Below, in pieces: positions 10,411-57,720 of a stretch of 64,000 nt of DNA (the first letter of the stretch is position 1; each line of letters begins with the position of its first letter). This DNA comes from a phage. The stretch lies in sequence record PZ000613.1. One strand, written 5' to 3'. The position numbers were made by a program, and so were the translations under genes. A model generated the notes under the pieces. It saw only the letters and a program-made list of their open reading frames with translations. It did no database searches and was not told the origin of the DNA.

Positions 10411-10414
10411 AGAG

Positions 10415-10444: not shown

Positions 10445-10488
10445 AACTAAGGGACAACTCTTACTTAAACTAACAAGAGGAAGCTAAA

Positions 10489-11140: not shown

Positions 11141-11147
11141 GGTTAAT

Positions 11148-11324: not shown

Positions 11325-11325
11325 T

Positions 11326-11490: not shown

Positions 11491-11498
11491 ATAATTCT

Positions 11499-11574: not shown

Positions 11575-11580
11575 CATTTA

Positions 11581-11695: not shown

Positions 11696-11714
11696 AATCA
11701 AATAGGAGGTAGTT

Positions 11715-11996
11715 ATGAGTTGGGGTGGTGTAATATCCTTAATCTGTATCTTCCTTGTCTGCATAGCCCTTACAGGCTGCGTACAGAGCCGTCCTGATGG
11801 ATGGTGTGCAGTAGCAGTGGAAGGTATTTGTGTTTCTCGCTGGCACCAAGGCGAGAAGGTTCCTTCTGGTGAAATTGATATGCGTTACAGTGGTATCTCA
11901 TGTCTTAACGGTGCAGCAGTAGATGAGGAGACTAAAACCTTATCCAATGCTCAATGGTGTGGCGGTTCTGTAACAACAACCGGTAAGGAGTGGTAA
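11715..11996 (+). CDS. Predicted lipoprotein, Cys-rich (93 aa)
   Basis: Signal peptide ending in lipobox LTGC; SD AGGAGG 7 nt upstream. Confidence 0.65.
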   Translation: MSWGGVISLICIFLVCIALTGCVQSRPDGWCAVAVEGICVSRWHQGEKVPSGEIDMRYSGISCLNGAAVDEETKTLSNAQWCGGSVTTTGKEW

Positions 11997-11997
11997 T

Positions 11998-12246
11998 ATG
12001 ACAGCTCATTATTGGAATACAAAGAAGCTTCTTGAAGAGATGGCTGGAGGTAGTAGGGTACAGTTAATCTCTATGCTTCGAATGGATGCTCGCTCCTTAC
12101 GCTTCCAAGTAAAGATTGGTAACTTCAGTGACGGCCTTTATTACACGCTGAAGGAAAGGATTAAGAAGACTCACTTCATCATGTACGGAATCAAACCGAG
12201 AACGTACGTTAACTACATGTATTGGAATACATGCTACGATAATTGA
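11998..12246 (+). CDS. Hypothetical protein (82 aa)
   Basis: ATG overlapping upstream stop. Confidence 0.55.
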   Translation: MTAHYWNTKKLLEEMAGGSRVQLISMLRMDARSLRFQVKIGNFSDGLYYTLKERIKKTHFIMYGIKPRTYVNYMYWNTCYDN

Positions 12247-12253
12247 GGTTATT

Positions 12254-12475
12254 ATGAAACTAGACTCTAAGCAGTCACTTAAAACCGTTGAGCTGTCCAC
12301 TCTGCCAAACGGAAGTATTTTTGGTCATGATAAACACTTCTGGATTAAAACAGACATCATAAACGATGGATATATCACCTGTGTCAATCTTTGGAACGGC
12401 TCAGTGGATGGCTATCGCCCTAGCGCAAAGGTGGTGCCTCAGCCTGATGCAAAGGCTACAGGTTTGGTTTACTAA
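12254..12475 (+). CDS. Early small-protein paralog family A member
   Basis: VELSTLPNGSIFG...FWIKTD motif. Confidence 0.6.
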   Translation: MKLDSKQSLKTVELSTLPNGSIFGHDKHFWIKTDIINDGYITCVNLWNGSVDGYRPSAKVVPQPDAKATGLVY

Positions 12476-12489
12476 GGAGTTCAGTATAA

Positions 12490-12624
12490 ATGAAACTCAA
12501 ACGAATGCTTTTTCGAAATGGAATGTACACTCTCCGAGAATCCCCTAAAGGGGACACTACAAAGTGGAGTGTAGGGGATTGGATTTCATTCATAGATGAG
12601 AAGGGCAGCTGGATTCTCGAGTAA
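12490..12624 (+). CDS. Small hypothetical protein (44 aa)
   Basis: ATG ORF with AAGGAG 12 nt upstream; below track size cut-off. Confidence 0.3.
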   Translation: MKLKRMLFRNGMYTLRESPKGDTTKWSVGDWISFIDEKGSWILE

Positions 12625-12635
12625 CAGGAGCCTGT

Positions 12636-12809
12636 ATGAGTTGTTTTGGTGGCGGTGAAGTGGATGACGATGATGATATGGAATCTAACGGTACATGTCC
12701 TGATTGTGGATGTGAGACGTGGGATGGCGTGTCAGTGTATCCTGCCTGTAGTTACTCACCAGTGATCTGTAAAACATGTGGAGATCAACCTTGTGACCAG
12801 TCTTGTTAG
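12636..12809 (+). CDS. Small Cys-rich acidic protein (57 aa)
   Basis: SD CAGGAG 5 nt before ATG; 10 cysteines in CPDCGC...CKTCG...PCDQSC. Confidence 0.5.
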   Translation: MSCFGGGEVDDDDDMESNGTCPDCGCETWDGVSVYPACSYSPVICKTCGDQPCDQSC

Positions 12810-12810
12810 T

Positions 12811-13035
12811 GTGTTAATAGCCTATTTAATAGGGTCAGTAGTATCAGGTGTTCTAATTAAGATCATAGATGTTAAAGGTAATCAGTGTTTCAGAGGTTGG
12901 GATGGTGAACCAGATCTCGGAAAGATAGCAGCTATGGTTTTCTTATGGCCTATTATTGCTGTACTGTTTATAGCACTTGTAGCATGGGCTGCCCTTTGGG
13001 ATTTCATCCTTCCTAACAAAAAGTATGAGGACTAA
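12811..13035 (+). CDS. Small membrane protein, LWPI-motif paralog 1 (GTG start)
   Basis: Two hydrophobic segments; shares EPD...M...LWPI motif with 13178-13435. Confidence 0.5.
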   Translation: MLIAYLIGSVVSGVLIKIIDVKGNQCFRGWDGEPDLGKIAAMVFLWPIIAVLFIALVAWAALWDFILPNKKYED

Positions 13036-13166
13036 TGACTGAAGAATTTTTAAAGTGGTTTGGTGATACCTTCAAAGAGTATCTATTCTCTCCAGAAGAC
13101 TTTGAAGAACTGAAAACCTACACTTGGTTGGCTTGGAGAGATAGCCGACGAAAGTTGAACAAGTAA
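13035..13166 (+). CDS. Small hypothetical protein (43 aa)
   Basis: taATG overlap, SD GAGGA. Confidence 0.4.
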   Translation: MTEEFLKWFGDTFKEYLFSPEDFEELKTYTWLAWRDSRRKLNK

Positions 13167-13177
13167 GAGACGATTAA

Positions 13178-13435
13178 ATGGGTTTACTTGATATTTTTAT
13201 CTCAGTTTACTTTATTGGAGTATTCCTTTCTGTTTTAGTGCTGAAACTACTATACAAGAAAGGTCTACTAAAAGGGGTCATTACAACAGGGTCTACCAGC
13301 TCTGAACCTGATGAGATGATGGTTGTGATCTTAATTGTGTTATGGCCCATCTCAATACTGGCAGGAGTCTGTTATCCGATAGGTTGGCTTCTGTCTAAAG
13401 CATATGATGCAGTTATACGTTTTATATTTAAGTAA
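13178..13435 (+). CDS. Small membrane protein, LWPI-motif paralog 2
   Basis: ATG ORF 85 aa with two TM segments, paralogous to 12811-13035. Confidence 0.6.
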   Translation: MGLLDIFISVYFIGVFLSVLVLKLLYKKGLLKGVITTGSTSSEPDEMMVVILIVLWPISILAGVCYPIGWLLSKAYDAVIRFIFK

Positions 13436-13646
13436 TATCGTGAAGGATTCTTACGAGAGTCCTTTGAGATAGGACTTCAGATCTCCTATCAAACTAACAT
13501 TCATGTAACTAGCCCATAAGGGCGTTACCCTTTAATAACCCAGCCCACTAAGGGGGCGGGAGTTTAGTGCTGGATTGGCTTTACGCTTATTCCTACAAAG
13601 GCAACCGATTGTTAGATCTTACATGCAATATTAACTAATAGGGTAA

Positions 13647-13677
13647 GGGAGGATTCGTCCCCTCCCCCTATTTTATT
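13647..13677 (+). terminator. Probable Rho-independent terminator
   Basis: GGGAGG...CCTCCC stem followed by CTATTTTATT. Confidence 0.5.
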
Positions 13678-13725
13678 GAATCTTTATCTAAGCAAGTCTT
13701 ATATAAATGTTTAATTGGAGGATGT

Positions 13726-14037
13726 ATGAAAGCACGAAGAACTATATGGACTCCTATGCAGATTGAAAACCTTCGGAGACTAATCAAAGAGTACTCGGTT
13801 CAAGAAGTTGCTCAGATTATGAATGTAACGGAGAATGCTGTTAACACAGCTTGCACTAAATTCGGAATATCAAGAGCTTCAATCCGAGTTAAATGGTCTG
13901 AAGAAGAAGACCAGTTCCTTATCCGTAATGCTGGGTTCATGTCTATTCAGAGAATGGCTGACATGCTCGGTAGAAGTTATGCTGCTGTACAGAACAGGGC
14001 ATGTATGCACCTTAACATTAGCCTCAAACTTAAATAG
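13726..14037 (+). CDS. Putative DNA-binding protein with two Myb/SANT-like HTH repeats
   Basis: Two W-x(17-20)-helix repeats (WTPMQIENLRRL...; WSEEEDQFLIRN...); SD GGAGG. Confidence 0.55.
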   Translation: MKARRTIWTPMQIENLRRLIKEYSVQEVAQIMNVTENAVNTACTKFGISRASIRVKWSEEEDQFLIRNAGFMSIQRMADMLGRSYAAVQNRACMHLNISLKLK

Positions 14038-14045
14038 GAATCGAT

Positions 14046-14300
14046 ATGAAAGTTAACGAGTTGAACAAAACCATCAAGACTGTGAAACTCCACACTCTAA
14101 AGAATGGTGACACATTCCGTAAAGAGGAGAACGGCCCAATCCACATGGTGTGTACTGCGTCGTCTACCAATTGGGTGGAAGTTGCACGAGATCGAATTGT
14201 GTGCGTAAGACTGGAAGATGGCAGTCTGAGTGGTCCGGTTGACGGCATCTCTGTCATACCGGTCAAAGTTGAAGCTAACGTTATTAAGGGTTCTAAATGA
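14046..14300 (+). CDS. Early small-protein paralog family A member
   Basis: VKLHTLKNGDTFR...HMV...VIPV motif. Confidence 0.65.
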   Translation: MKVNELNKTIKTVKLHTLKNGDTFRKEENGPIHMVCTASSTNWVEVARDRIVCVRLEDGSLSGPVDGISVIPVKVEANVIKGSK

Positions 14301-14536
14301 AGATTACAAAGAGAGTGGATCGTGTCCCACTTGAGTCCTTAGAAAACGGGGCCGTGTTTAAGCATCCAGACAGTGACACACTCTATGTTAAAGGTTTTGT
14401 TCACGGCACACCTAATGTGTCCGTAAATAATGGACGTACTCTATCTCTTCGTCTACATGACGGGCTTGTAACAGCACCTGATTCTACGTGCCAAGTTATC
14501 CCTGTGTCAGCTGAACTTTTAGTGAGTGATTGCTAA
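14297..14536 (+). CDS. Early small-protein paralog family A member
   Basis: VPLESLENGAVFK...LYVKG...VIPV motif; ATGA coupling. Confidence 0.65.
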   Translation: MKITKRVDRVPLESLENGAVFKHPDSDTLYVKGFVHGTPNVSVNNGRTLSLRLHDGLVTAPDSTCQVIPVSAELLVSDC

Positions 14537-14781
14537 TGAAAATCATCCCAAAGAAAAAGGATAATACGGTTCGATTGGAAACAATCATTCCCGGAAACCC
14601 TTTCGTGGTTCAGAACGGAAGTGCTTCTCCTCAGTATTATATGAGGGTTGAAAATGCTTCTGGTAATATCCGTATAGCTAGTGGTTGGATTCCTGTAGTG
14701 AATCTATTCACAGGTGTGCTGTGTGTTAAAGGTGCTGACGAACAGGTTGAAATGATTCGTATGTCAGTTGTTCAGGAGTAA
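14536..14781 (+). CDS. Early small-protein paralog family A member
   Basis: VRLETIIPGNPFV...YYMRV...IPV motif; taATG overlap. Confidence 0.6.
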   Translation: MKIIPKKKDNTVRLETIIPGNPFVVQNGSASPQYYMRVENASGNIRIASGWIPVVNLFTGVLCVKGADEQVEMIRMSVVQE

Positions 14782-14783
14782 TC

Positions 14784-15044
14784 ATGAGCACTATTCATAT
14801 TAAAGTTAAGAGCAAAGAGGAAACAGTCCTCCGTGTTAAAGATCTAAATATGTCAGATGTGTTCACTCTCCAAGAGTGCCATCTTCAAAAGACTTACATG
14901 CTGACAGCCAAGAGTAGGGGCAGTCAACCTGCTGGAGCTGTTAACCTAGGCACTGGAGAACTACGTGTCATCTCTGGTGATATGGTTGTTGGTGAGAAGT
15001 TTAGTAAAGCTGAAATTATCTTAACTCCACAGGAAAACAAATGA
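14784..15044 (+). CDS. Early small-protein paralog family A member
   Basis: LRVKDLNMSDVFT...YMLT motif. Confidence 0.65.
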   Translation: MSTIHIKVKSKEETVLRVKDLNMSDVFTLQECHLQKTYMLTAKSRGSQPAGAVNLGTGELRVISGDMVVGEKFSKAEIILTPQENK

Positions 15045-15157
15045 GACGTAAAGCATATTCTTATGACGATATGATTAACCAGAAAGGTTTTGGTCAACGA
15101 CAGCCTGATGGTTCAATTATCTGGTTTGTAAACGGACAGAAAAAGGTAACTAAATAA
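15041..15157 (+). CDS. Small hypothetical protein (38 aa)
   Basis: ATG overlapping upstream TGA; below track size cut-off. Confidence 0.3.
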   Translation: MRRKAYSYDDMINQKGFGQRQPDGSIIWFVNGQKKVTK

Positions 15158-15263
15158 GCCCTCTTCTCTCCTCCTTTTAGTACTATGACGCCTCTTTTTA
15201 GACGGCCCAATTTGCGTAGGGAATTCCCTCTACGCAGCCATGACTTTTTAAGGAATTTCCCCT

Positions 15264-15497
15264 ATGTCTAAAGTAAGCGCAATCGATGCAATCCGTCAAC
15301 CGTTCCAGTTCCAATCCAAATCAACCCAAACCTTCAGTGAACCTAAGCAAATTCGCTTGGGCGGCACGGAGAAAACTGTGTTCGATCTGGCTAAAAACAA
15401 GAGCGTTACCGTAGTTGATGGTGGCACTCTGGTTAACGTTTCCCATCGCATCCGCACTGGCAAAACTGCCAAAGATCGTGCTAAGAAAGGTCTGTAA
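15264..15497 (+). CDS. Hypothetical protein (77 aa)
   Basis: ATG ORF with GGAA SD-like sequence. Confidence 0.55.
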   Translation: MSKVSAIDAIRQPFQFQSKSTQTFSEPKQIRLGGTEKTVFDLAKNKSVTVVDGGTLVNVSHRIRTGKTAKDRAKKGL

Positions 15498-15748
15498 TGC
15501 AAATTTCCAATAAAACACCTCCTGAGCCTACTGTTCAAGTAAAAGATATGACACCGGGAGATGTGTTTCGTTCGGTTGAATATCCGGGGGAATTCTTTAT
15601 CCGAATCCCTTCTGCCTCTGTTGATGGTGTCACTAAGCCGGTAACAGCAGTTCAGTTGAGCACAGGTCATCTCTTCCGTTTAGAGCTTGACATGGCAGCT
15701 ATTCCTGTTCCGACAGCAATCCTCCGCTTCGACGGAGACACAGAGTAA
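15497..15748 (+). CDS. Early small-protein paralog family A member
   Basis: VQVKDMTPGDVFR...FFIRIP...IPV motif; taATG coupling. Confidence 0.6.
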   Translation: MQISNKTPPEPTVQVKDMTPGDVFRSVEYPGEFFIRIPSASVDGVTKPVTAVQLSTGHLFRLELDMAAIPVPTAILRFDGDTE

Positions 15749-15753
15749 CATCT

Positions 15754-15781
15754 ATAGCCCTCGTAAGTATCAGAGGGCTAT
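15754..15781 (+). promoter_or_regulatory. Conserved intergenic hairpin (ATAGCCCT...AGGGCTAT), copy 2 of 2
   Basis: Near-identical to 9722-9749; downstream GTGTTCCTCA and ACATCCG blocks also shared. Confidence 0.5.
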
Positions 15782-15982
15782 GTGAGCTATTCTGGCTCAA
15801 CTAACCTAATCTTAATATATTTCCCGTATGGGGCCGATGCTAGGGCGAGGAGTGTTCCTCAAACATCCGTCGGATAGATATTTTAAGAGCAGGTTATCCA
15901 CAGATATTGGGTAATATCTTTTTTTGGATTTAAAGCTTGGCTCTTTTCGGAGAGTCCTTTTTTAAATTCAACGAGAGGAAAT

Positions 15983-47682: not shown

Positions 47683-50600
47683 TCACTCCTTAGGTCGAAC
47701 TCTTACACGGAGTCTCGATTGACGCTTACTGCGTTCAAGCTTCTCTGACAATGAGCCACGTTTAATCTTCGGCTTCCCTTCGTCATTAAACTTCTCCAAG
47801 AACTGCAAGTACTCAGTACGATTGGTTGTCTTGTAAGAAGGAATCTTAATATCAGGGTTCTCTTCAATTACACGTCTCATCTTCGCTACATCATCCCTAC
47901 CAAGCAATTTACTCTTAGCCTGTTCAGCTGTAGAACCAAAGATCTTCTCCAGTGCTCTGGATTTGTTACCACCTGCGGAAGAAGCACCAAGTTTAGCAAT
48001 GGCAGAGTAATCATCAGCACTAAACCAAGCTACTGGATTATCACCATACTTCTTCTTGTTTTCAGCAGCGGTCTGCAATGCACGTACAAAGCGACGGTTG
48101 TTACCAGCCTTATCTGCACCATGAACCCTGTCTAAAACTTCAGCCACACTGGCTAACTCATCCAAACTCTTCCCATTCAAGAAAGCTTTCTCTGCTTTAT
48201 CAGCAAAGGCTTCTTCCTGCTGTTTAATACTTTCCAAGATATCAGAACTTGCTTGAGATCTTTCATCATCAGGCAGAGCAGAACGAATCTTCTCCATCTC
48301 CATCTCTTCCTCTTGCAGTTTCTTAATATCAGAGTCAACCTTCTGAGCCTCCTCAATAGCCTTCCTAGTATCCGCATCCAAGTTATCAAGCTTACCTTCA
48401 GTATCTCCAGTAACCTTAGCAATCTCCTTCTCGATAGGAGTCATTGATTCATACTTCTTAGCGAACTTCTCAACATCAGCTTCGATACGAGAACGAGCAT
48501 TCTGATGTTCAGTAGGAGTCATAGGCTTCTCAAGAAGTGCATAACGGTTATCCATATAGGAACCAGCAAACGCTTCAGCATCCTCTCTAGATATGCCCTT
48601 ATCTTCCATAGTACGCATCAGGCGGCGATGAATGTCATCACGTTGACGTTGTACTGCCATAAGGTCATTCTCACGTTCTTGGGCCGCTTTAAGCTCTTCG
48701 CTGCGCTTAACTCTCTTGTCCACATCAAACTTACGGTTCATTTCTTCCGCTTGCTCATACATCTTATTCCACTTAGCCTGACGAGCATCTTCCTCTGCAT
48801 CAGTTAAACGACGCTGACGATCAAGGTAGTCTGACTCGGCGTTATGGATACGTTCAATGTAACTACGGAACTTCTCTGGAGGAACTGGAGAGTTCTTATC
48901 GTGGTGAGCAGCCAACTGTTTCAATGTACGAGATTCCTGAGCCTCACGAACAGGTTTAGGTAAACCTTCCATCATCTTCTCAATCTCACTCTTCTGAGCT
49001 GCAATAGCCTCTAGAGTTTTACGTTCATTCTCAACAGCAGCCTTAGCATCTGAACGAGCCTGAGCCTTTTTCCTGAGGGTAGCAAGACGTTCTTCACGAG
49101 CCTGTAAGTGCTTAGCAGCAGCTTCGTACTGAGAGTTCTTGTTAGCTTTGTTGAAGGCATTCACTTCTCTGTTGTAGGTGTTAATAAACCCATCCCAAAT
49201 ATCCTTCATCTGACCAACTTCCAAAGCCTCTTCCCTACCAGCCTTCTCTGAAGATTTAAACTTCCCATCTACAAAGTCATTCATCAGCTTACGCATAGCA
49301 TCTTTCTGAGCAGGACGTAAAGGTTCTGAATCAATCAAAGTATCAATCTCAGACTGAAGCTCTTTCTTCTGGTCAACCAGTTTAGGAGCATTCTTGTTGT
49401 CGAAAGCTTTGTTCTCTTCTAGAGCTTGTTGATACAATCTATCAAACTCATCCTCACGCTGCTTCTGATATAACCTTTCAGCACGACGTTTTAAACTATC
49501 CAAGTTAGTTACGTTCCCACCTAAACCCTTCTCTTCAGCACGTAATGCCTTAGTAGCAATGTCTTCTGGCAGACCACGTTCCTTAACCCATTCAGCAAAA
49601 TTAGTTCGTACAGTGTTGTTCTTAGCAGTAGCAATACCTTGCTGAGAAGCTAGCTGGTTACGAGCCATCTCTTCATGACGTTCAGTGTTGATAGCATTAT
49701 CTTCCTGACGAATACGACGCATCAATTCCTTAGGATCACCCTTATAAGCCAAGAAGTTTTCAGCAGTAGCTTTAGCCTTAGCAGCCTTAGAGTACAGAGA
49801 ACGAGCAAAACGTTCTGCACGATCTTTAGTAGCCTGACGAGCAGCACTAGACATAGCAGCTAAACGTTCTACACCACTTGCCGGTTTAACGTCCTGTACA
49901 GCTTCCTTAGGAGCTTTAGGGGCACGGGCAGGTAATGGCTCAGCTTTGACTGTTGGTTCCTCTACGGTTGGTTCTGGAGCCTGTGCGGCCTCTTCTTGAG
50001 CACGTTGCTGCTCCATTGCACGACGCTCCTCTAAAGGATTGCGAGCAGGGAGAGGTTCAGCCTGTGGAGCTTGTTCGACCGGAGCTTCTTGAGCAGCCAA
50101 TGCCTCTTCTTCAGCGCGACGCTGTTCAGCCTGACGGATAGCACGTCTTTGCGCAACTAAATCACGAGCTGTAAGAGGGGTTTCTTGAGGAGCAGAAGAA
50201 GGAGGATTTTCTTCCGTCACAGTACTAGAAGAAGGCTCCCGAACCGGTTCGGTTTCCACGTCATTTTGCGTCTTAAATTTAATGTCATCAACAACTGGTT
50301 CTTCTTCCATCTTAGCACGAGCTTCAGCAGCAGTAGACTTAGCACGAGCAACTTCCAAATCACCACGAGCAAGAGAGCGGATAGCTTCGCTGTTAGCTTC
50401 TTGTTGCTTAACACGTTGAGAACGAGCACGCTGAGAAGAGAAGCGATTCAGGGCATACTTAGCAGCACCGAGGGTGTTCATTACTAGACTAGGTGAAGAA
50501 GCCTCACGGAAGCCATCATCAGTCAGGGAAGTCCAACCACGATCTTGGTTACTCATGAACTTAGCTGTATTGTTCAGAGTGTAAGCATCTTGAATAGGAT

Positions 50601-52104
50601 TAAAACCTTCAGGCATACCTTTCAGTTTCTTCAACCCACCGATAGCTTTCTTCATCTCTGGAGAAACATTATCAGCCATCTTCTGTAGTTCAGCAGCTTT
50701 CTCTACAAAGTTATTAAAGTCTTCACCATCACGAGCTTTGAATCGATTTGCTTCATTGTAGAAAGTCTTGTAAGCATCAATGAAATCACGGTCAGCTTGT
50801 GTACGATTCTTAATATCAATCGGACTACCAGTAAAATCACCAGAAGCTCGGAGAGAAGTTAATTCACGATCTAGGTTATCTAGAACATCTGTAAGAGCTT
50901 TCGTGTTATCTTTGGTGTAGTCAGCCATTGCATCCTTCATAGCAACAGCCTGCTTCTGGTTGTGCTCGTTGTCAGCGAATGCTTTACCGCGAGTCTTAGC
51001 AGGAGAAGCTAAAGGATTGAGGCCCGGAATGTTGGAATGTTCTTTCTGAACGGAAGCAGCTTTCTCAGCACGAGCTTGGTCAGTATTAAGAATACGCTGA
51101 GCAGCAGGAGAATCTACAGCAACAGCATCTGTAATACGGAATCCATTCTCATCCAGAAGGTTCAGAGCAGAAGCAGCGTTAGCAGTTTCAGCTTTAGAAT
51201 AAGCCTCTTTCAGTTCATCAATATTCTTAGCACTACGAATCAGTTCGTCATCAGCAGCAATATCAGTCTTCGCATACTCTGGAGTGTTCTTGAAGACGGC
51301 AGAATCTGGACGGCTAATCAAACCATGAACCCCACCAACTGCGCCACCAAATGCAGCACCCATAGCCCCTTCTTCGATAACACCTTCCAATGTTTTAGCT
51401 AGATCGTTGTCATCACCATACTTGTTCTGAACTTCAGCAGCACCAACAAGAGCACCACCTTTAGCACCAGCCACTGCGTTACTAGCAACGTTCTGACCGA
51501 TACGTCCAAGTGTGGATTCAGCTGTACCAACAGCACCCGGAAGGATTCTCTGAGCCGCATAGTTAGCACCACCAACTAAGGCTGCATCTAGAATAGACTT
51601 ATCTTCTCCCTCTTCAGGGGTTTGGTCTGCATATGCACGACCTGTCTCACGACCTGCGATGATAGCAGCAGCAGCCAATGGATTAGCAACAGTCATACCA
51701 ATATCACCAGCAACTCCAGCATACTGACCAACAGTTTTACCAATCCCATCCTCAATCTTATCCATACGTTCTTTCAGGAGGTTCTGAGAGTTCTCTTGGA
51801 TACGCTTACCATAACTAGTTTGTGTTCCAGCTAGATTCTCACCAATCTCAACTAAACCACCAATACCTTTAGCAGCACTAGCTGCAATATTTGCACCACC
51901 AGATTGAAGAGCATTTGACACACCTTGAGCAAACTCGCCTATAGCACCACGTTCTTCTTGTTGTGATTGTGCTACTGGTTGTTCCTCAGGAATAGAGCCA
52001 CCTGCTGCCTTATATTGTTCTCTCATTTGAGCTTGTTGCTCCGGAGAGGCATTCAGATACGCAGGAGCTTTGGAAGCTTCTTCCCACGGTTTAATGTTAG
52101 CCAT
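47683..52104 (-). CDS. Large internal virion/ejection or tape-measure-like protein (1473 aa), coiled-coil rich
   Basis: Start moved to internal ATG with SD GGAGA (MANIKPW...); Gly/Ala-rich N-terminal region then long Ala/Glu/Lys/Gln-rich region; structural block. Confidence 0.75.
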   Translation of the reverse strand: MANIKPWEEASKAPAYLNASPEQQAQMREQYKAAGGSIPEEQPVAQSQQEERGAIGEFAQGVSNALQSGGANIAASAAKGIGGLVEIGENLAGTQTSYGKRIQENSQNLLKERMDKIEDGIGKTVGQYAGVAGDIGMTVANPLAAAAIIAGRETGRAYADQTPEEGEDKSILDAALVGGANYAAQRILPGAVGTAESTLGRIGQNVASNAVAGAKGGALVGAAEVQNKYGDDNDLAKTLEGVIEEGAMGAAFGGAVGGVHGLISRPDSAVFKNTPEYAKTDIAADDELIRSAKNIDELKEAYSKAETANAASALNLLDENGFRITDAVAVDSPAAQRILNTDQARAEKAASVQKEHSNIPGLNPLASPAKTRGKAFADNEHNQKQAVAMKDAMADYTKDNTKALTDVLDNLDRELTSLRASGDFTGSPIDIKNRTQADRDFIDAYKTFYNEANRFKARDGEDFNNFVEKAAELQKMADNVSPEMKKAIGGLKKLKGMPEGFNPIQDAYTLNNTAKFMSNQDRGWTSLTDDGFREASSPSLVMNTLGAAKYALNRFSSQRARSQRVKQQEANSEAIRSLARGDLEVARAKSTAAEARAKMEEEPVVDDIKFKTQNDVETEPVREPSSSTVTEENPPSSAPQETPLTARDLVAQRRAIRQAEQRRAEEEALAAQEAPVEQAPQAEPLPARNPLEERRAMEQQRAQEEAAQAPEPTVEEPTVKAEPLPARAPKAPKEAVQDVKPASGVERLAAMSSAARQATKDRAERFARSLYSKAAKAKATAENFLAYKGDPKELMRRIRQEDNAINTERHEEMARNQLASQQGIATAKNNTVRTNFAEWVKERGLPEDIATKALRAEEKGLGGNVTNLDSLKRRAERLYQKQREDEFDRLYQQALEENKAFDNKNAPKLVDQKKELQSEIDTLIDSEPLRPAQKDAMRKLMNDFVDGKFKSSEKAGREEALEVGQMKDIWDGFINTYNREVNAFNKANKNSQYEAAAKHLQAREERLATLRKKAQARSDAKAAVENERKTLEAIAAQKSEIEKMMEGLPKPVREAQESRTLKQLAAHHDKNSPVPPEKFRSYIERIHNAESDYLDRQRRLTDAEEDARQAKWNKMYEQAEEMNRKFDVDKRVKRSEELKAAQERENDLMAVQRQRDDIHRRLMRTMEDKGISREDAEAFAGSYMDNRYALLEKPMTPTEHQNARSRIEADVEKFAKKYESMTPIEKEIAKVTGDTEGKLDNLDADTRKAIEEAQKVDSDIKKLQEEEMEMEKIRSALPDDERSQASSDILESIKQQEEAFADKAEKAFLNGKSLDELASVAEVLDRVHGADKAGNNRRFVRALQTAAENKKKYGDNPVAWFSADDYSAIAKLGASSAGGNKSRALEKIFGSTAEQAKSKLLGRDDVAKMRRVIEENPDIKIPSYKTTNRTEYLQFLEKFNDEGKPKIKRGSLSEKLERSKRQSRLRVRVRPKE

Positions 52105-52142
52105 AACGTCTCCTTTTATAAATAAAAATGTCCTACCCCCTA

Positions 52143-52151
52143 TATACATTA
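52143..52151 (-). promoter_or_regulatory. TAATGTATA (minus strand) candidate phage-sigma promoter upstream of large virion protein gene
   Basis: Reverse complement of TATACATTA, 39 nt upstream of ATG at 52104. Confidence 0.4.
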
Positions 52152-52171
52152 TAGAAGGCAGGACTTAGGTC

Positions 52172-53827
52172 TTATTGAGTGAACCAGCTAGTGTCTTCGA
52201 CAGCTGATAAAGCACCGTTAAGCTTAGGATTGGTTGCTGCACCACCAACTGCTTCTTCCGCTTGTTCAGAGAAAACACCTAGAGGGTCGTAGAAACCGCC
52301 AGAAGGGATTGCACGGTTAACCAATGCAGTAGCTCTCTTCTTATCCATACCAGAACCGATGTAAGCTTCAATCGTAGCTCTCTTAGCATCAGCAACACCT
52401 TTCATTGCAGAGGTGTGACCAACGTTAGCCTGCTTACGAGCATAAGCAAGAGCAGAATCAGTAGGACGCCATCCAGATTTAAGTGCAAACTTGTTGCCAA
52501 CACGAATGAAGATTGATGGGTCTTCTGCAAAGTGCCCCAAATCTTCTTCGGTAAGAGAACGAGTAGCACCGATTTCAGCCCTTGCGGAGTTCATAATAGC
52601 CTGCATGTAAGCAGAACGAGCTGTCTGATAGTCTTTATCTTTAACTGCTTTGTCAGCCAAATCCAAGTCTTTGTTGGACTGGTTAAATAGACCACCTTTC
52701 TCTGCCCATTGCTTAGCAACTGTACCTTCAGCTGTGTTCTGAGCAAGACGAACTTCTTTCGGGTTGAAGTTAAAACTCTGAGCAGCTTGTTCAGCACGTT
52801 CAGCCTTGACTTGATCACGATACCCAATCAACTCTTTCTGACGTTCAAAGTTCATATTAGCCCTTTCTTCAGCAGCACGACGAGTTTCCTCAGCACGCTC
52901 ACGCATAGTCTGCTCTTGAATCTGTTGACGTCTATCCCATTCAGCATTCTGTCGTTCTTCACGAGCAGCATACAATGCTTCTTTCTGAGCAGGATCTACA
53001 GCCTTCATCTTCAGCAGAGAAGGGTCTCCGTTAGCAATAGCAGCTGCAATTGAGTCTTGAGAGAAGCCTTGTTCAATCAGAGCATCACGGTTAGCTTCCA
53101 GTTGCTTCTTAGTCTCATCTTGATTAGCCATTCCCTGACCAATCTGGAAAGCTTCAATAGGAGACTTACCTGACATAATGGAAAGACCTACACCCATCAA
53201 ACCTGTATAGAAACTAGAGTTCTGATAGAATGGTTCTTTCTGTAGTTTGTTCCAAGCTTCTGAAGGGTCTTTAGCTTTCGCAACTTGCAAGATATCATTG
53301 TTAACACGTTCCTGATCTTTAGCACGAGTAGCAGCAGTCATCCCATCACCTGTGTCTTGTCCTTGAGCAAGAGTGTTAATCACACCTTGTGCCTGTTCCA
53401 CCTGAGAAGGAGTAAACTCCATAGGACCAGCTTCTAGTGGTTTAGGAGGAGGTGTTACCGGAAGAGGGTCACTAGGCATAAGCCCAGCATCCTGTAAACC
53501 TTGATCAGTGGATAGGTTAGGATTAGCCGCTACAGGAGCTGGTGCTCCAACATCAATACCCTGAAGACTGGTAGGGGTTCCTTGATTCTGATGTTCCATG
53601 AGACGTTGCTGGAATCCCGGATTAATCATAGCATTCTGATCTTCTTCTGCCTGAGAGACAAGACCTGCAAGAGATGAAGGTATAGCAGGACGTTGATACA
53701 TAGAAATATCTGCTGTCTGAGTTGGTCTAGCCATATAAGGAGAGGCCGAAGCCGCTCCCGGATTAACACCATAGAAAGTATTTCTCGGGTCACGACTTCT
53801 GACCTGAGCGTAAGTTGTCTGTTGCAT
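52172..53827 (-). CDS. Virion structural protein (551 aa), function unknown
   Basis: ORF with SD AGGAGA; Gln/Ala-rich. Confidence 0.7.
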   Translation of the reverse strand: MQQTTYAQVRSRDPRNTFYGVNPGAASASPYMARPTQTADISMYQRPAIPSSLAGLVSQAEEDQNAMINPGFQQRLMEHQNQGTPTSLQGIDVGAPAPVAANPNLSTDQGLQDAGLMPSDPLPVTPPPKPLEAGPMEFTPSQVEQAQGVINTLAQGQDTGDGMTAATRAKDQERVNNDILQVAKAKDPSEAWNKLQKEPFYQNSSFYTGLMGVGLSIMSGKSPIEAFQIGQGMANQDETKKQLEANRDALIEQGFSQDSIAAAIANGDPSLLKMKAVDPAQKEALYAAREERQNAEWDRRQQIQEQTMRERAEETRRAAEERANMNFERQKELIGYRDQVKAERAEQAAQSFNFNPKEVRLAQNTAEGTVAKQWAEKGGLFNQSNKDLDLADKAVKDKDYQTARSAYMQAIMNSARAEIGATRSLTEEDLGHFAEDPSIFIRVGNKFALKSGWRPTDSALAYARKQANVGHTSAMKGVADAKRATIEAYIGSGMDKKRATALVNRAIPSGGFYDPLGVFSEQAEEAVGGAATNPKLNGALSAVEDTSWFTQ

Positions 53828-53840: not shown

Positions 53841-54809
53841 TTAAGTACTAGCCAACCCACCGATTACACCCCCAGCTAATGCACCCCAAGGCCCAAACGC
53901 AGAGCCTGCTGCTGCACCGCTCATGGCCCCACCTAAGAAGCCACCACTACCACCAGATTGTTTTGTAGTTGTAGTTTGTCCGAGAGCACCGTTAAGTACA
54001 CCTGCTGCACCGAGTTGGTTATTGATGTCTTGCCATCCCCAATTAGCTGCGTTCTGAGCGTTCTGGTAGGCATTATCATATTCATTCTGTTGTTGCTGTT
54101 GTTGCTGCAAACCTGCATTCCACTGATTCATGATTTGCTGTTGAGACAAATTAGCACTCTGCTGACCTAGGTTAGAAAGGTTAGAACCAATATTAGAAAG
54201 ACCTGAGAGAGCAGCTGCCTGATTCTGTCTATTACCAGAGAGGATACTTTCAGCTTGGCTAATAGCCGAGTTATAGGCACTATTGGTAATATCTGTTGCT
54301 TGATTTTGCATCTGATTTAGAGCGTCACCTTGAGCGAAAGACTTAGCCATACGAGCACCCGAACCCTGTTGACCAGCAAATTGTTGAGCTAACTGAGGAA
54401 GAGCATTACGTGCTAAGTTCTGTTGAACCTGTTCGTTATTAGCTGTAATGGCTGCTTGCACAGCGTCATCATCATACAATTGACCAGCGAGAGCACCAAT
54501 TTGTTCTCCAGTAATCCCACCTTGTCCAGAGAGGCTTTGATAGCCTTTATAGGCATTATCTAGATAACCCAAGCCTTGACTTGCTGCATCCATGTATTGC
54601 TGTGAGAGAGTGCCTAGAGCGCCAGATTGTGCTAGGTTATTAAGTGCCTCTGTCTGATTATTATTAAACACTACATTATCTCGATAAACATAATCCCCTG
54701 AACTAGTATTACCAATCTGCTTATTAAGCTGGTCAATATACTGTTGAATGTATTCAGGGCGAATCATTTGGGAAGTAGTTTTACTACCTCCGCCTCCGAA
54801 TAAAGCCAT
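53841..54809 (-). CDS. Q/N/Gly-rich low-complexity virion protein, paralog 1
   Basis: MALFGGGGSKTTSQ N-terminus, poly-Q tract, Gly-rich hydrophobic C-terminus; SD AGGAGA. Confidence 0.7.
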   Translation of the reverse strand: MALFGGGGSKTTSQMIRPEYIQQYIDQLNKQIGNTSSGDYVYRDNVVFNNNQTEALNNLAQSGALGTLSQQYMDAASQGLGYLDNAYKGYQSLSGQGGITGEQIGALAGQLYDDDAVQAAITANNEQVQQNLARNALPQLAQQFAGQQGSGARMAKSFAQGDALNQMQNQATDITNSAYNSAISQAESILSGNRQNQAAALSGLSNIGSNLSNLGQQSANLSQQQIMNQWNAGLQQQQQQQNEYDNAYQNAQNAANWGWQDINNQLGAAGVLNGALGQTTTTKQSGGSGGFLGGAMSGAAAGSAFGPWGALAGGVIGGLAST

Positions 54810-54821
54810 ATTAAATCTCCT

Positions 54822-55874
54822 TTAGTTTGCTCCGAATGCCCCTAAGACCCCACCTAAGATATTACTACCTGCTGTGGATAACCAGTTAGACTGACCTCTC
54901 TGTTGAGAAAGATTAGAACCTCCAATCATAGGACCAGCCATGCCAGATTGCCCACCTGAATTATTATAGGAACTCCAAGCATTCTGAGTCTGTTGGTTAG
55001 GAGAGAAAGCGCCCATACGACCTGCAATACCTAATCCAGTAATACCAGCACCGAGAATCTGCTGTCCTGTGTTAACACCCGGAGCGGCATTCTTAATTGT
55101 ATATCCAGCCATTGGACTTACACTGTTTAATACATTAAGTTGGTTGTTAAGCTGATTCCATCCATACTGCTGAGAGCCAATAGCGTTCTGCCAATTAATA
55201 TCAGCTTGAGCCTGAGCTTGCTGCTGTTGTAGATTACCAGCCATGAGTTGATTCTGGATGGCTTGTTGAGTTGCTTGAACACCCTGAGCACCAAGATTGA
55301 GATTCTGTCCAGCCAACCCTGACTGAGCACCAAGTAAGCCTCTCTGGAAGTTTTGGTCTTGTTGAAGAGCACTGATTCCCATGTTCTTACCACTGATAGT
55401 ACGAGCTAAGTTTGTATTAGCACCGTTCAGGGCAGCACCTTGAGCAGCAGCTCTACGAAGAGAGCCAGAGTCGGAGCCATTTCCGAGAGATACATTGGAA
55501 GCTGCCTTACTAGTAGCTTGAGCAAGAGCTGAGTTATTCAACCCTTTACTAAAGTTATTAACACCATCAGCAGTTAGACCACCACCATTGACAATATTCT
55601 GATACTGTTGAGCAAGAGCGTTTAGTTGGTCCAGTCCTTGCTGTGTACGAGGTGTGTACATATCAGCCAATTGCTTCTGAGTTGTAGAAGCTGCTAAGTT
55701 ATTCAGAGCACCCTGTTGGTTGCCATTAAACCCAGCCAGCTGTTGGGAGATGAATCCCGGATCGTTGTTCTGCATATTCTGAGCATTAGCAACAATCTGC
55801 TTCAGCAGGGCATCAACCTGAGAGGAAGGGGCCACTGTGGTTTTGCTAGAAGCTGATTTTCCAAATAAAGACAT
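54822..55874 (-). CDS. Q/N/Gly-rich low-complexity virion protein, paralog 2
   Basis: MSLFGKSASSKTT N-terminus, Q/N/G-rich, Gly-rich C-terminus; SD AAGGAGG. Confidence 0.7.
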   Translation of the reverse strand: MSLFGKSASSKTTVAPSSQVDALLKQIVANAQNMQNNDPGFISQQLAGFNGNQQGALNNLAASTTQKQLADMYTPRTQQGLDQLNALAQQYQNIVNGGGLTADGVNNFSKGLNNSALAQATSKAASNVSLGNGSDSGSLRRAAAQGAALNGANTNLARTISGKNMGISALQQDQNFQRGLLGAQSGLAGQNLNLGAQGVQATQQAIQNQLMAGNLQQQQAQAQADINWQNAIGSQQYGWNQLNNQLNVLNSVSPMAGYTIKNAAPGVNTGQQILGAGITGLGIAGRMGAFSPNQQTQNAWSSYNNSGGQSGMAGPMIGGSNLSQQRGQSNWLSTAGSNILGGVLGAFGAN

Positions 55875-55893: not shown

Positions 55894-56676
55894 TTACTTT
55901 ACACCAATGCTAGCCAAACGCCTGAGCACTGCTTGTGTTTGTGGACTGTACTGAGAACCTGCTGCATGTGGTGCACTTGCCCTCTGAACTGTTTGAGAAG
56001 TAGGTGGTTTACCAGCAAGCATAGCAGCTACCCCTAATACTGCATTACCAAAGTTCTGTTGAGGCTTCTGGTCTTCTCCTTCCTGCACTTCATCAGAGTA
56101 AAACTCTACCGGGTTACCTCCTAAAGCCCCTGTCTTAGAAGCAGCAATCTCTGCCTGAGTTGGAGCTTGTGCAGTCTTATCTCTGTCTAGCAAGTCAGGA
56201 CTAAACTGATTGACTGGTTGAACAGCTTGTAAAGCCCCTATAGGATTAGCAATCTGAGAAGCTGCATCACCATAGAAAGGAAGGAAGTGTTTATTGTTCA
56301 TAGAGTCAAGAGCCTGAGGAGTAAATCCTCTTTTACCAGCGAACATCTGCTTAGCTCCACCAATACCTTCTGAATAGCCAACCATTGCTTTCTTAACATC
56401 ACCATTAAAGGCTTTAAGGTTATCTCTGATATAGCGAGCACCCATGTCGATATTCTTGGCTGGGTCAAGCCTGTCTTCTAGTTTATAACCATAATCTTTA
56501 GCTAACCCTTTACTGATCTGCATCAAACCAACAGGCCCAGTTCCGGAAGCCACCTTAGGACGACCACTAGACTCCCTTTGGATTACAGCATGAATCAAAG
56601 CAGCTGGTATACCATACTTCTTTGAAGCCTGTTGAACCATCGGGTCTAGTTCTTCTATACCCATTCTAATTGCCAT
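55894..56676 (-). CDS. Lytic transglycosylase (SLT domain) virion protein
   Basis: SLT catalytic region ...VIQRESSGRP...GLMQIS...; SD AAGGAGAG. Confidence 0.8.
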   Translation of the reverse strand: MAIRMGIEELDPMVQQASKKYGIPAALIHAVIQRESSGRPKVASGTGPVGLMQISKGLAKDYGYKLEDRLDPAKNIDMGARYIRDNLKAFNGDVKKAMVGYSEGIGGAKQMFAGKRGFTPQALDSMNNKHFLPFYGDAASQIANPIGALQAVQPVNQFSPDLLDRDKTAQAPTQAEIAASKTGALGGNPVEFYSDEVQEGEDQKPQQNFGNAVLGVAAMLAGKPPTSQTVQRASAPHAAGSQYSPQTQAVLRRLASIGVK

Positions 56677-56685: not shown

Positions 56686-57720
56686 TTATTGTATGCTTCT
56701 AAAAATCTTTCTAGCGTCAAGTACGGGGATGTTTATACCAATAGCTCCTCCACCGCCTAAGTCATATTGGTTGGACCAAGAATAAATCATCCTACCATAG
56801 CCCGTGCCAAAGGAAGAACCACTCATTGTATGAGATCTTGCGTGTTGGAAGTACCACCCACTTGCACTACCTCTTATAGCTCCAGCTCCATAAGAAAGAG
56901 GGATCATGGGATACGACAGTGTAGTGTTACCTCCACTCATAGGCATAAACCTGTCAACCATGAATGGTGTTCTATATGTAGAAAATACACATTGAGATCC
57001 ATTAGGGGAGTATATATTCAGTCCGCCATTGTGGGTGGGAACTCCTGCCCCATCACAGAATACTGCAATCCTAACCCCGTTAATAGAGCCTGTTTGGTTT
57101 GTGTTCCCGTTGTCGTGAGACCTATTCTGATAGACATACACCGTTCTATTAGAAGGGTTGTATAGTAGTCCAGCACTTCCGCTATTCCAGTTAGCAAAAA
57201 CAGATGCCCTGTTCATGTCGAAACCGCTGATAGCTGGGATTTGCATTGAACTGTTTATATTACCTTCCCAAGCCCAAATACATTGACCAACAACACCTGA
57301 ATCAGAGATAGAGAAATAGTCTGCTGAATTGGAAAAAGTTATGCCGTAGTTTCTATTAGCTCTAGGCCAGATTTGATACACGTTAAAAGCCATATCAAAT
57401 ATCCAACCGTTAACGTTGTAGTCCATTGTGACCCTGAAGGTGGAGTTATTAACAACAGATATGTTGGTTAGCCAGTAAACATCTGATGTTACGTTGGGAG
57501 GTATGTACCGTTCCCAAACCACAGAACCTGTAGGTACTATAACTATTTGACCACTTCCATCCCACCCACTGATAGGTAGATCACACGTATTACCATTAAA
57601 TGTGAAGTTACCACTAACCCTATTCCTTAATTGAGGAAAGGTGGTACCACTATCAATAAAAAGCTCAGCCGGAGAAGCTGGTCCCGGTCCGACTGGCGTT
57701 GTCCATATTCCATATGCCAT
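56686..57720 (-). CDS. Virion structural protein (344 aa), beta-rich, possible distal tail/receptor-binding protein
   Basis: Asn/Ser/Gly/Trp-rich ORF in tail-fibre neighbourhood. Confidence 0.6.
   Translation of the reverse strand: MAYGIWTTPVGPGPASPAELFIDSGTTFPQLRNRVSGNFTFNGNTCDLPISGWDGSGQIVIVPTGSVVWERYIPPNVTSDVYWLTNISVVNNSTFRVTMDYNVNGWIFDMAFNVYQIWPRANRNYGITFSNSADYFSISDSGVVGQCIWAWEGNINSSMQIPAISGFDMNRASVFANWNSGSAGLLYNPSNRTVYVYQNRSHDNGNTNQTGSINGVRIAVFCDGAGVPTHNGGLNIYSPNGSQCVFSTYRTPFMVDRFMPMSGGNTTLSYPMIPLSYGAGAIRGSASGWYFQHARSHTMSGSSFGTGYGRMIYSWSNQYDLGGGGAIGINIPVLDARKIFRSIQ

What the first reader, a model, noticed from the sequence alone, without database searches (positions are those of the whole stretch)
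53841..55874. Paired Q/N/Gly-rich low-complexity virion proteins
Two adjacent paralogs (322 and 350 aa) begin with M-(A/S)-L-F-G...SKTT, are dominated by Gln, Asn, Gly, Ala and Ser with poly-Q runs, and end in Gly-rich hydrophobic tails. They sit between the SLT transglycosylase and the large internal protein, so they are probably ejected virion proteins. The composition suggests flexible or self-associating material, perhaps a trans-envelope channel.
Basis: partly seen in the sequence, partly recalled or inferred. Interest (0 to 1): 0.5.

Follow-up and report, generated by a model that had tools for sequence, protein, structure and literature searches.

The report
Duplicated phage DNA-ejection proteins, glycine-zipper tails
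These two neighbouring genes are the known "ejection proteins" gp21 and gp22 of phiEco32/SU10-like E. coli phages, which travel inside the virus head and are shot into the cell ahead of the DNA; the finding is real but already published, and only their exact role in the DNA channel is still open.

Summary
Two minus-strand genes (53841-54809, 322 aa; 54822-55874, 350 aa) encode true paralogs with about 62% Gln/Asn/Gly/Ala/Ser, against a window mean of 31%.

The window is a Kuravirus (phiEco32/SU10-like podophage). The two proteins are 97% identical to SU10 gp22 and gp21. Published SDS-PAGE and mass spectrometry found both in SU10 virions and missing from particles that had released their genome.

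New here:
- They are not disordered low-complexity filler. They belong to a large, position-specifically conserved, all-helical family (PHROG 4287; 3,530 cluster representatives) with no Pfam model for its body.
- The best-conserved part is a C-terminal glycine zipper that is significantly similar to the C-terminus of P22 ejection protein gp7.
- Related podophages carry one copy. Some fuse it to a self-cleaving Peptidase_S74 domain and a cell-wall hydrolase.

Most likely the pair forms the membrane-inserting, virion-proximal part of the trans-envelope DNA conduit. That mechanism is inferred, not shown.

Already known; modest interest.

The parts
54822..55874 (-). Paralog B, 350 aa. Orthologue of SU10 gp21 and phiEco32 gp23, and the diverged copy of the ejection-protein pair.
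   Evidence: ORF. 97.4% identical to SU10 gp21, 98.6% to phiEco32 gp23, 100% to phage Paul gp021. PHROG 4287 'DNA ejection protein', E = 2e-117.
53841..54809 (-). Paralog A, 322 aa. Orthologue of SU10 gp22 and phiEco32 gp24 ('DNA injection/ejection protein'). This copy is closer to the single-copy ancestral form.
   Evidence: ORF. 97.2% identical to SU10 gp22, 98.1% to phiEco32 gp24. PHROG 4287, E = 1.5e-107. It scores higher than B against the broad family HMM: 258 vs 158 bits.
53844..53939 (-). C-terminal glycine zipper of A (residues 291-322, FLGGAMSGAAAGSAFGPWGALAGGVIGGLAST). G294-x3-G298-x3-G302-x3-G306, then G309-x3-G313-x3-G317. Putative membrane-inserting, tightly packing helix.
   Evidence: Holds 9 of the 11 invariant columns of the A-family alignment; the other two are M1 and P18. 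Aligns to the P22 gp7 C-terminus: hhalign 95.7%, E = 1e-8. 8 of 36 family members hit Pfam Gly-zipper_YMGG.
55005..55061 (-). Internal Gly-rich hydrophobic segment of B (residues 272-290, QILGAGITGLGIAGRMGAF). Corresponds to the first half of A's zipper.
   Evidence: Conserved block in the B-family alignment, with Q272, G275, L281, G285 and F290 invariant. Highest hydropathy window of B. Aligned to A's zipper in the joint alignment.
54825..54869 (-). Terminal Gly-rich tail of B (residues 336-350, GSNILGGVLGAFGAN), separated from the first segment by a variable insert of about 45 residues.
54756..54809 (-). Conserved N-terminal motif of A (M-x-L-F-G-G-G-x-x-T-T-S...P18). B carries the same motif at 55827-55874. 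Function unknown; possibly an incorporation or processing signal.
   Evidence: M1 and P18 invariant, T12 and S13 nearly invariant. The family consensus begins MG...TTT....P.
55894..56676 (-). Upstream neighbour: 260-aa SLT lytic transglycosylase (SU10 gp20), first gene of the five-gene ejection cassette.
   Evidence: Pfam SLT, E = 7e-24. PHROG 12507. SU10 gp20 is lost on genome release.
52172..53827 (-). Downstream neighbour: 551-aa protein (SU10 gp23). By position and size, a candidate periplasmic-tunnel subunit.
   Evidence: PHROG 12130. SU10 gp23 is an ejection protein. A weak motif links it to the C-terminal part of fused homologues: hhalign 53%, E = 1.3e-4.
47683..52104 (-). Large internal/ejection protein (SU10 gp24, 1473 aa). 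The likely true start is the ATG at 52104, not the upstream ATG at 52149.
   Evidence: The PHROG 14629 profile aligns to residues 16-1488. Relatives are annotated at 1473 aa. RBS AAGGAG lies before the ATG at 52104.

Best explanation
The two genes encode the Kuravirus ejection (internal virion) proteins gp21 and gp22, using SU10 numbering.

Shown for 97%-identical orthologues: the proteins are packaged in the head and leave the particle when the genome is released.

Inferred: they are the functional counterpart of P22 gp7, the small, nearly uncharged, polar helical ejection protein that leaves first and builds the virion-proximal, membrane-embedded start of the DNA conduit. After the tail needle is lost, they would pass through the tail channel and refold as long alpha-helical hairpins of about 60 residues per arm. 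They would then oligomerise, and the C-terminal glycine-zipper helix would insert into the membrane, probably the outer membrane, and pack tightly.

The SLT enzyme (gp20) cuts the peptidoglycan. The 551-aa gp23 and 1473-aa gp24 would extend the channel across the periplasm and inner membrane.

The duplication is specific to Gordonclarkvirinae-like phages. Copy A keeps the ancestral zipper and copy B has a split zipper. This suggests a hetero-oligomer or two stacked rings.
For: Identity and synteny with SU10 and phiEco32.

SU10 experiment: gp20-24 are present in virions by mass spectrometry and absent from genome-release intermediates.

PHROG 4287 'DNA ejection protein' matches over the full length.

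The family is large and conserved: 3,530 representatives at E <= 1e-3 and 674 at E <= 1e-10. In five related phage or prophage-like loci examined, the gene sits at the end of the tail block, followed by one or two small genes in some loci and then by larger ones.

The C-terminal zipper is the best conserved part. It is significantly similar to the C-terminus of P22 gp7: hhalign 95.7%, E = 1e-8, 38 columns; 92% against the single sequence. Some family members end in ...GLLGSLF exactly as gp7 does. Family members hit the Pfam Gly-zipper and P22_gp7 models weakly.

Composition matches P22 gp7: QNGAS 58% and KRDE 10% in gp7, against family means of 55% and 12%.

AlphaFold2 predicts an all-helical protein with a confident 100-190 region and a 150-211/216-275 hairpin.

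Fusions tie the module to envelope breaching. P0167 is module + Peptidase_S74 + Hydrolase_2 cell-wall hydrolase + a long tail, and sits in an SU10-like tail module.

From the literature: P22 gp7 partitions into nanodiscs and is modelled as the outer-membrane pore or tail-proximal conduit.
Against: Neither protein reaches the Pfam P22_gp7 model at E <= 0.1. Outside the last ~38 columns, the alignment to gp7 has no statistical support.

There is no detectable similarity to T7 gp14: hhalign 0.1%.

The Gly-rich tails are only weakly hydrophobic, about 1.1 on the Kyte-Doolittle scale. They would not be called classical transmembrane helices.

No solved structure matches by sequence or fold.

The monomer model is only moderately confident, with mean pLDDT 63.

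The SU10 reconstructions show no resolved density for these proteins, so neither their location before ejection nor their place in any channel is known. Which membrane they enter, if any, is untested.
Confidence: 0.55

Rival explanations
1. They form the periplasmic tunnel itself, in the role of T7 gp15, P22 gp20 or DEV gp72, rather than the membrane pore. The long helical hairpins would build the tube and the zipper would merely anchor it.
For: The predicted ~60-residue helices, about 9 nm long, are tube-like. Known tunnel proteins are all-helical.
Against: The 551-aa gp23 occupies the size class and gene position of the tunnel protein. The only significant similarity to a characterised ejection protein is to gp7, the small membrane-associated one. 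No fold match to solved tunnel proteins was found in the PDB.
Confidence: 0.15
2. Their real job is inside the capsid, for example as a core or spool around the portal, a plug, or help with DNA packing. On this view they leave the head passively and have no channel role.
For: SU10 calls them 'putative core proteins' and sees no ordered density. Ejection proteins of other podophages also have a distinct pre-ejection state around the portal.
Against: A conserved terminal glycine zipper and fusions to a cell-wall hydrolase point to action in the host envelope. [quoted passage not shown]
Confidence: 0.12
3. The glycine zipper targets the inner membrane rather than the outer membrane, so the pair forms or primes the cytoplasmic-membrane pore.
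For: Glycine-zipper motifs occur in both inner- and outer-membrane-associated small proteins (Pfam Gly-zipper families hit). No localisation data exist.
Against: By analogy, the largest ejection protein (gp24 here; gp16 in T7 and P22) is assigned the inner-membrane role. The SieA study proposes, without direct evidence, that gp7 sits next to the tail.
Confidence: 0.1
4. They are intrinsically disordered, prion-like Q/N-rich material that aggregates or forms a gel.
For: 25-27% Q+N and poly-Q runs. The first, shallow-alignment AlphaFold2 run gave pLDDT 38.
Against: Conservation is position-specific across thousands of homologues. With a deeper alignment, helices are predicted with pLDDT up to 93. 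More distant homologues keep the scaffold at lower Q/N content, 12-19%. The predicted helices are amphipathic beyond shuffles, with a whole-protein z of 2.7.
Confidence: 0.05

Closest known systems
Escherichia phage SU10 gp21 and gp22 (= phiEco32 gp23 and gp24), Kuravirus ejection proteins; PHROG 4287
   Same: 97-98% identical, same lengths (350 and 322 aa), and the same five-gene cassette SLT-gp21-gp22-gp23-gp24. The SU10 proteins are experimentally in the virion and lost on genome release.
   Different: Nothing of substance; this is a strain-level variant. No structure, stoichiometry or individual function is known for these proteins in any Kuravirus.
Salmonella phage P22 gp7 (Pfam PF25688 P22_gp7), the smallest of the three E-proteins
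   Same: A small ejection protein encoded at the head of the ejection genes after the tail needle. Similar composition: QNGAS 58%, KRDE 10%. The C-terminal glycine zipper with the ...PWGAxIGG... motif is significantly similar.
   Different: P22 gp7 is 229 aa, against 322 and 350 aa here. The Pfam model does not hit the window proteins. The body of the protein is not detectably homologous. P22 has one copy and no separate SLT gene; its gp16 matches a PHROG family labelled transglycosylase. Cleavage of the first 20 residues of gp7 by host OpdA has no known equivalent here.
T7 gp14 and DEV gp73 (N4 gp52), outer-membrane pore-forming ejection proteins
   Same: Proposed functional class: the small helical ejection protein encoded next to the tunnel and large ejection genes, forming a helical pore.
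   Different: No sequence similarity to T7 gp14. T7 gp14-like proteins are described as having 4-5 predicted transmembrane helices. The proteins here have only one or two weak Gly-rich segments. DEV gp73 is strongly positively charged, whereas these are nearly uncharged.
Glycine-zipper small membrane proteins (Pfam Gly-zipper_YMGG, Gly-zipper_Omp, Rick_17kDa_Anti)
   Same: Repeated GxxxG pattern in a short Gly/Ala-rich segment. 8 of 36 family members hit Gly-zipper_YMGG, best E = 1.1e-5.
   Different: Those are short bacterial envelope proteins. Here the zipper is the terminal ~30 residues of a 300-aa helical phage protein. The window proteins themselves do not reach these models.

Membership tests
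Kuravirus ejection proteins gp21/gp22 (PHROG 4287 'DNA ejection protein') | Full-length match to the family profile | tested here: met
   E = 1.5e-107 (residues 1-310) and E = 2e-117 (residues 1-350).
Kuravirus ejection proteins gp21/gp22 (PHROG 4287 'DNA ejection protein') | Orthology and synteny with SU10 gp21/gp22: SLT upstream, 551-aa and ~1473-aa genes downstream | tested here: met
   97.4% and 97.2% identity. Identical gene order.
Kuravirus ejection proteins gp21/gp22 (PHROG 4287 'DNA ejection protein') | Present in purified virions and released with the genome | not testable with these tools
   Shown for the SU10 orthologues by SDS-PAGE and mass spectrometry (PMC9509320).
P22 gp7 family (Pfam PF25688) | Match to the Pfam model above its gathering score of 28 bits | tested here: not met
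   No hit at E <= 0.1 for either protein. Only 2 of 36 wider-family members hit weakly, best E = 0.0027.
P22 gp7 family (Pfam PF25688) | C-terminal Gly-rich segment with the PWGAxIGG motif at the extreme C-terminus | tested here: met
   hhalign family vs gp7 family: 95.7%, E = 1e-8, 38 columns. Met for paralog A. Paralog B has a split, diverged version.
P22 gp7 family (Pfam PF25688) | Homology over the body of the protein | tested here: inconclusive
   The greedy and global alignments are co-linear but have about zero per-column confidence outside the C-terminus.
P22 gp7 family (Pfam PF25688) | Partitions into lipid; required for DNA delivery | not testable with these tools
   Reported for P22 gp7 in the literature. 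No data exist for the Kuravirus proteins.
T7 gp14-class outer-membrane pore proteins | Sequence similarity to T7 gp14 | tested here: not met
   hhalign probability 0.1%, E = 0.43.
T7 gp14-class outer-membrane pore proteins | Four to five predicted transmembrane helices (per review PMC8954989) | tested here: not met
   Only one (A) or two (B) weakly hydrophobic Gly-rich segments, with a maximum Kyte-Doolittle 19-residue window of 1.07-1.20. No dedicated transmembrane predictor was available.
T7 gp14-class outer-membrane pore proteins | Small ejection gene adjacent to the tunnel gene and the large ejection gene | tested here: met
   Order is SLT, B, A, 551 aa, 1473 aa. Compare T7 genes 14, 15, 16 and P22 genes 7, 20, 16.
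Glycine-zipper motif proteins | Tandem GxxxG repeats in a short apolar segment | tested here: met
   A has G294, G298, G302, G306 and G309, G313, G317. Six of these seven glycines are invariant across the A family and G309 is nearly invariant.
Glycine-zipper motif proteins | Match to the Pfam Gly-zipper models above threshold | tested here: not met
   No hit for the window proteins. 8 of 36 relatives hit Gly-zipper_YMGG.
Prion-like / intrinsically disordered Q/N-rich proteins | Composition-driven sequence without position-specific conservation or stable predicted structure | tested here: not met
   Conserved columns across the family. 674 homologue clusters at E <= 1e-10. Helices predicted with pLDDT up to 93.

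The most novel reading that the evidence does not exclude
Kuravirus gp21/gp22 and the roughly 3,500-cluster PHROG 4287 family would form, together with P22 gp7, one ancient superfamily of 'first-out' ejection proteins in P22/SU10/LUZ24-type podophages.

The defining part would be a free C-terminal glycine-zipper helix that forms the membrane pore of the DNA conduit. The need for a free C-terminus would explain why many relatives place a self-cleaving Peptidase_S74 (or Hint) domain directly after the zipper when the module is fused to a cell-wall hydrolase and tunnel-like domains in a single ejection polyprotein.

In Kuraviruses the module would have been duplicated to give a hetero-oligomeric pore.
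Probability: 0.35. Interest if true: 0.5.

Novelty: already known. Interest (0 to 1): 0.3.

Why it matters
How short-tailed phages build a DNA conduit across the Gram-negative envelope is resolved structurally only for parts of the T7 and N4-like (DEV) systems. A 2026 preprint on P22 exists but I could not read it.

For Kuraviruses, which are used in E. coli phage-therapy and biocontrol work, the five ejection proteins are identified but structurally invisible. Showing that gp21 and gp22 carry a gp7-like glycine zipper, and belong to a very large family that Pfam does not cover, gives three things:
- a concrete, testable assignment (membrane pore subunit);
- a target motif for mutagenesis;
- a handle for annotating thousands of 'hypothetical' podophage genes.

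As a discovery about this window, however, it is ordinary: the genes and their ejection-protein nature are published.

Tried and rejected
- **Sequence search of the PDB.** Single sequences and the family profile gave nothing below E = 0.7.
- **Foldseek of the AlphaFold2 model against the PDB.** Best E = 0.66. Only generic long helical hairpins came up (colicin, BAR domains, Tc toxin), so this was uninformative.
- **BFVD fold search.** It returned only uncharacterised phage homologues, some with auto-processing or Hint domains.
- **First AlphaFold2 run with the shallow alignment.** pLDDT was 38, unusable. The deeper alignment gave 63.
- **Pfam.** No family covers the body of either protein.
- **T7 gp14 homology.** Rejected.
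- **Link between the 551-aa neighbour and the C-terminal half of fused homologues.** phmmer found nothing and an HMM of those regions found nothing. hhalign gave only a 43-column motif match at 53% probability. I treat this as a lead, not a result.
- **Papers I could not read.** These were the 2026 bioRxiv preprint on in situ P22 channel structures and the 2008 phiEco32 proteomics paper.
- **The prion-like or disordered reading.** Considered and rejected.
- **Small overlapping ORFs inside the two genes.** The ORFs at 53933-54118, 53958-54170 and 55127-55393 lie within strongly supported genes and have no independent support.
Full report
**What is there**

The finding's coordinates coincide exactly with two adjacent minus-strand ORFs: 53841-54809 (322 aa, here A) and 54822-55874 (350 aa, here B). 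Each is preceded by an AGGAG-type ribosome-binding site and separated from its neighbours by 12-19 nt.

Both start M-(A/S)-L-F-G...(S)KTT. Both have about 62% Q+N+G+A+S and only 7-9% charged residues. The 52 long ORFs of the window average 31 +/- 9% and 25 +/- 6%. A carries a Q7 run and B a Q4 run. Both end in Gly-rich, weakly hydrophobic tails.

They are genuine paralogs. Composition-corrected BLASTP gives E = 4e-11. Profile-profile comparison gives 99.7% probability, E = 3e-26 over 260 columns.

**Where the window comes from**

The region is 95-97% identical in DNA to 70-odd E. coli and Shigella podophages of the genus Kuravirus (phiEco32, SU10, Paul, IMEP8). A and B are phiEco32 gp24 and gp23, and SU10 gp22 and gp21. 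Protein identities are 97-99%, and B is 100% identical to phage Paul gp021. RefSeq and several GenBank records already call them 'DNA ejection/injection protein', and both match PHROG 4287 over their full length.

The local gene order on the minus strand is:
- nozzle/Ig-like protein;
- tail needle;
- a DUF6453 protein;
- SLT transglycosylase (55894-56676);
- B;
- A;
- a 551-aa protein (52172-53827);
- a ~1473-aa protein (47683-52104).

**What is already known**

The SU10 cryo-EM study (PMC9509320) compared virions with in vitro genome-release intermediates by SDS-PAGE and mass spectrometry. It reported that gp20-24 are present in virions and absent after genome release, and it named them ejection proteins. 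Its Supplementary Table 1 lists gp21 (350 aa, 'hypothetical') and gp22 (322 aa, 'DNA injection protein') as confirmed virion proteins.

No density could be assigned to them. The authors propose that the ejection proteins extend the nozzle into a channel across the periplasm, while gp20 digests peptidoglycan.

The experiment it proposed (virion proteomics) has been done on 97%-identical proteins.

**What they are not**

They are not unstructured low-complexity filler.
- Word-indexed searches found about 50 clusters for each paralog.
- An exhaustive profile search with a joint alignment found 3,530 cluster representatives at E <= 1e-3 and 674 at E <= 1e-10. Most are 270-430 aa and cover the whole profile.
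- Alignments show a common architecture. It begins with an N-terminal M-G...T-T-T...P motif. A long helical body follows, carrying a G-A-F-G-G-S-R-like motif that is degenerate in the Kuravirus copies. Then comes a T-rich linker and a C-terminal glycine zipper.
- With the deeper alignment, AlphaFold2 predicts an all-helical protein (mean pLDDT 63, and 80-93 for residues 100-190), with a long hairpin at 150-211/216-275.
- The predicted helices are more amphipathic than shuffled sequence, though the effect is modest.
- The composition bias is a family trait: mean QNGAS 55% and KRDE 12%. It is somewhat exaggerated in the Kuravirus lineage.

**The informative part: the C-terminus**

In the A family, 9 of the 11 invariant columns lie in the last 30 residues, LGGAMSGAAAGSAFGPWGALAGGVIGG. 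This is a textbook tandem GxxxG glycine zipper.

P22 gp7, the smallest of the three P22 E-proteins, ends in a strikingly similar segment (...GASGAIAGAGLAKLIGSSTPWGAAIGGGIGLLGSLF) and has the same composition. Profile-profile comparison of the wide family against a gp7 family alignment gives 95.7% probability, E = 1e-8, but only over those 38 C-terminal columns (92% against the single sequence). Some family members end in ...GLLGSLF exactly as gp7 does. Family members also weakly hit Pfam Gly-zipper_YMGG (8 of 36) and P22_gp7 (2 of 36).

The limits of the link are clear. Neither window protein reaches the Pfam P22_gp7 model. The rest of the alignment to gp7 is co-linear but statistically unsupported. 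There is no similarity to T7 gp14.

I therefore do not file the proteins as members of the gp7 family. I do conclude that they share a homologous terminal module and very probably work like gp7.

**Copy number and fusions**

Two copies occur in the two Gordonclarkvirinae genera examined, Kuravirus and Suseptimavirus, and in a related element on an E. coli chromosomal contig. One copy occurs in Grimontviridae and in metagenomic podophages that have SU10-type capsid and adaptor genes.

In those single-copy loci the gene sits at the end of the tail block. One or two small genes follow in some loci, then larger genes. A scores closer to the single-copy form and keeps the canonical zipper. B has the zipper split by an insert of about 45 residues.

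About 40 of the 150 best representatives are proteins of 685-1,591 aa with the module at the N-terminus. One of them is module + Peptidase_S74 + Hydrolase_2 cell-wall hydrolase + a long tail, and lies in an SU10-like tail gene block.

Four of the 36 aligned relatives hit Peptidase_S74, best E = 7.8e-8. The four that carry a C-terminal extension right after the zipper are P0121, P0124, P0131 and P0147. Self-cleavage there would regenerate a free C-terminus just past the zipper. That last step is my inference.

These fusions tie the module functionally to envelope breaching.

**Most likely mechanism**

Shown in orthologues: the proteins are packaged in the head and expelled at genome release.

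Inferred:
- After needle loss, A and B exit through the tail.
- They refold into long helical hairpins and oligomerise.
- They use the glycine-zipper helices to insert into the outer membrane and pack there. This would form the virion-proximal start of the conduit, the role assigned to P22 gp7, T7 gp14 and DEV gp73 in the literature.
- gp20 cuts the murein, and gp23 and gp24 complete the tunnel.
- The duplication suggests a hetero-oligomer or stacked rings.

I put about 0.9 on 'ejection proteins' and about 0.55 on the membrane-pore role. The rivals cannot be excluded with sequence tools. They are periplasmic tunnel subunits, a capsid-internal role only, and inner-membrane targeting. The disordered or prion-like reading is unlikely.

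**Verdict**

The feature is real and was correctly interpreted, but it is already known at the level claimed.

The added value here has three parts:
- the large family that Pfam does not model;
- the gp7-like glycine zipper as its conserved core;
- the S74/hydrolase fusions.

Together these turn 'putative core proteins' into a testable pore-subunit hypothesis.

Noticed in passing
window 52120-52164 (- strand), between the 551-aa gene and the large-protein gene: A strong hairpin of 15 pairs (-22.8 kcal/mol, z = -4.3 against shuffles) followed by a U-run, then RBS AAGGAG and the ATG at 52104. It looks like an intrinsic terminator or attenuator inside the ejection operon, and could lower expression of the 1473-aa protein. 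The upstream ATG at 52149, which gives the 1488-aa ORF, lies in the hairpin loop and is probably not the real start. The SU7 record annotates a promoter in the equivalent spacer.
   Followed up: partly
L008 (E. coli assembly GCA_023211535.1, contig DAHCAP010000002.1, 389 kb), 945-15875: A chromosomal contig carries SU10-type capsid, terminase and portal genes plus the same five-gene cassette: SLT (291 aa), B-like (334 aa), A-like (322 aa), 498 aa and 1113 aa. Identity to the window proteins is 35-43%. This could be a prophage-like relative of a phage group regarded as strictly lytic, or a mis-assembled contig.
   Followed up: partly
L010 9001-12462 (protein P0167) and about 40 of the top 150 representatives: The ejection-protein module occurs as the N-terminal ~300 aa of proteins of 685-1,591 aa. 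P0167 has Peptidase_S74 directly after the zipper, then a Hydrolase_2 cell-wall hydrolase and a long tail. It looks like a single-chain 'ejection polyprotein'.
   Followed up: partly
window 53120-53230 (residues ~202-240 of the 551-aa protein, 52172-53827, - strand): The motif GLMGVGLSIMSGKSPIEAFQIGQG resembles the AGLGMMAGTSPYAGVNIGQGG motif found in the C-terminal half of 21 of 40 fused homologues (hhalign 53%, E = 1.3e-4). This hints that the gp22-like and gp23-like parts are one protein in other phages.
   Followed up: partly
window 56686-57720 (- strand): A 344-aa Gly/Ser/Asn-rich, Trp-rich protein (Pfam DUF6453; PHROG 1265 'membrane protein') sits between the tail needle gene and the SLT gene. 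Its SU10 orthologue, gp19, is not among the proteins reported as lost on genome release, and its role is unclear.
   Followed up: no
L006, L007, L011 (Grimontviridae: Aeromonas BUCT695, Proteus P59, Cronobacter A24): These phages have a single ~400-aa homologue. It is followed by genes of about 160-290 aa, about 175 aa, about 560 aa and over 1,100 aa. No SLT gene is annotated just upstream, so this is a differently organised ejection cassette.
   Followed up: no
window 11499-11574 (+ strand): One tRNA-Arg (anticodon TCT) gene lies in the plus-strand early/middle region.
   Followed up: no
window ~47,600: The GC skew changes sign here. This is where the plus-strand gene block meets the end of the minus-strand structural/ejection block. 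Phage Paul annotates a bidirectional terminator at the equivalent point.
   Followed up: no
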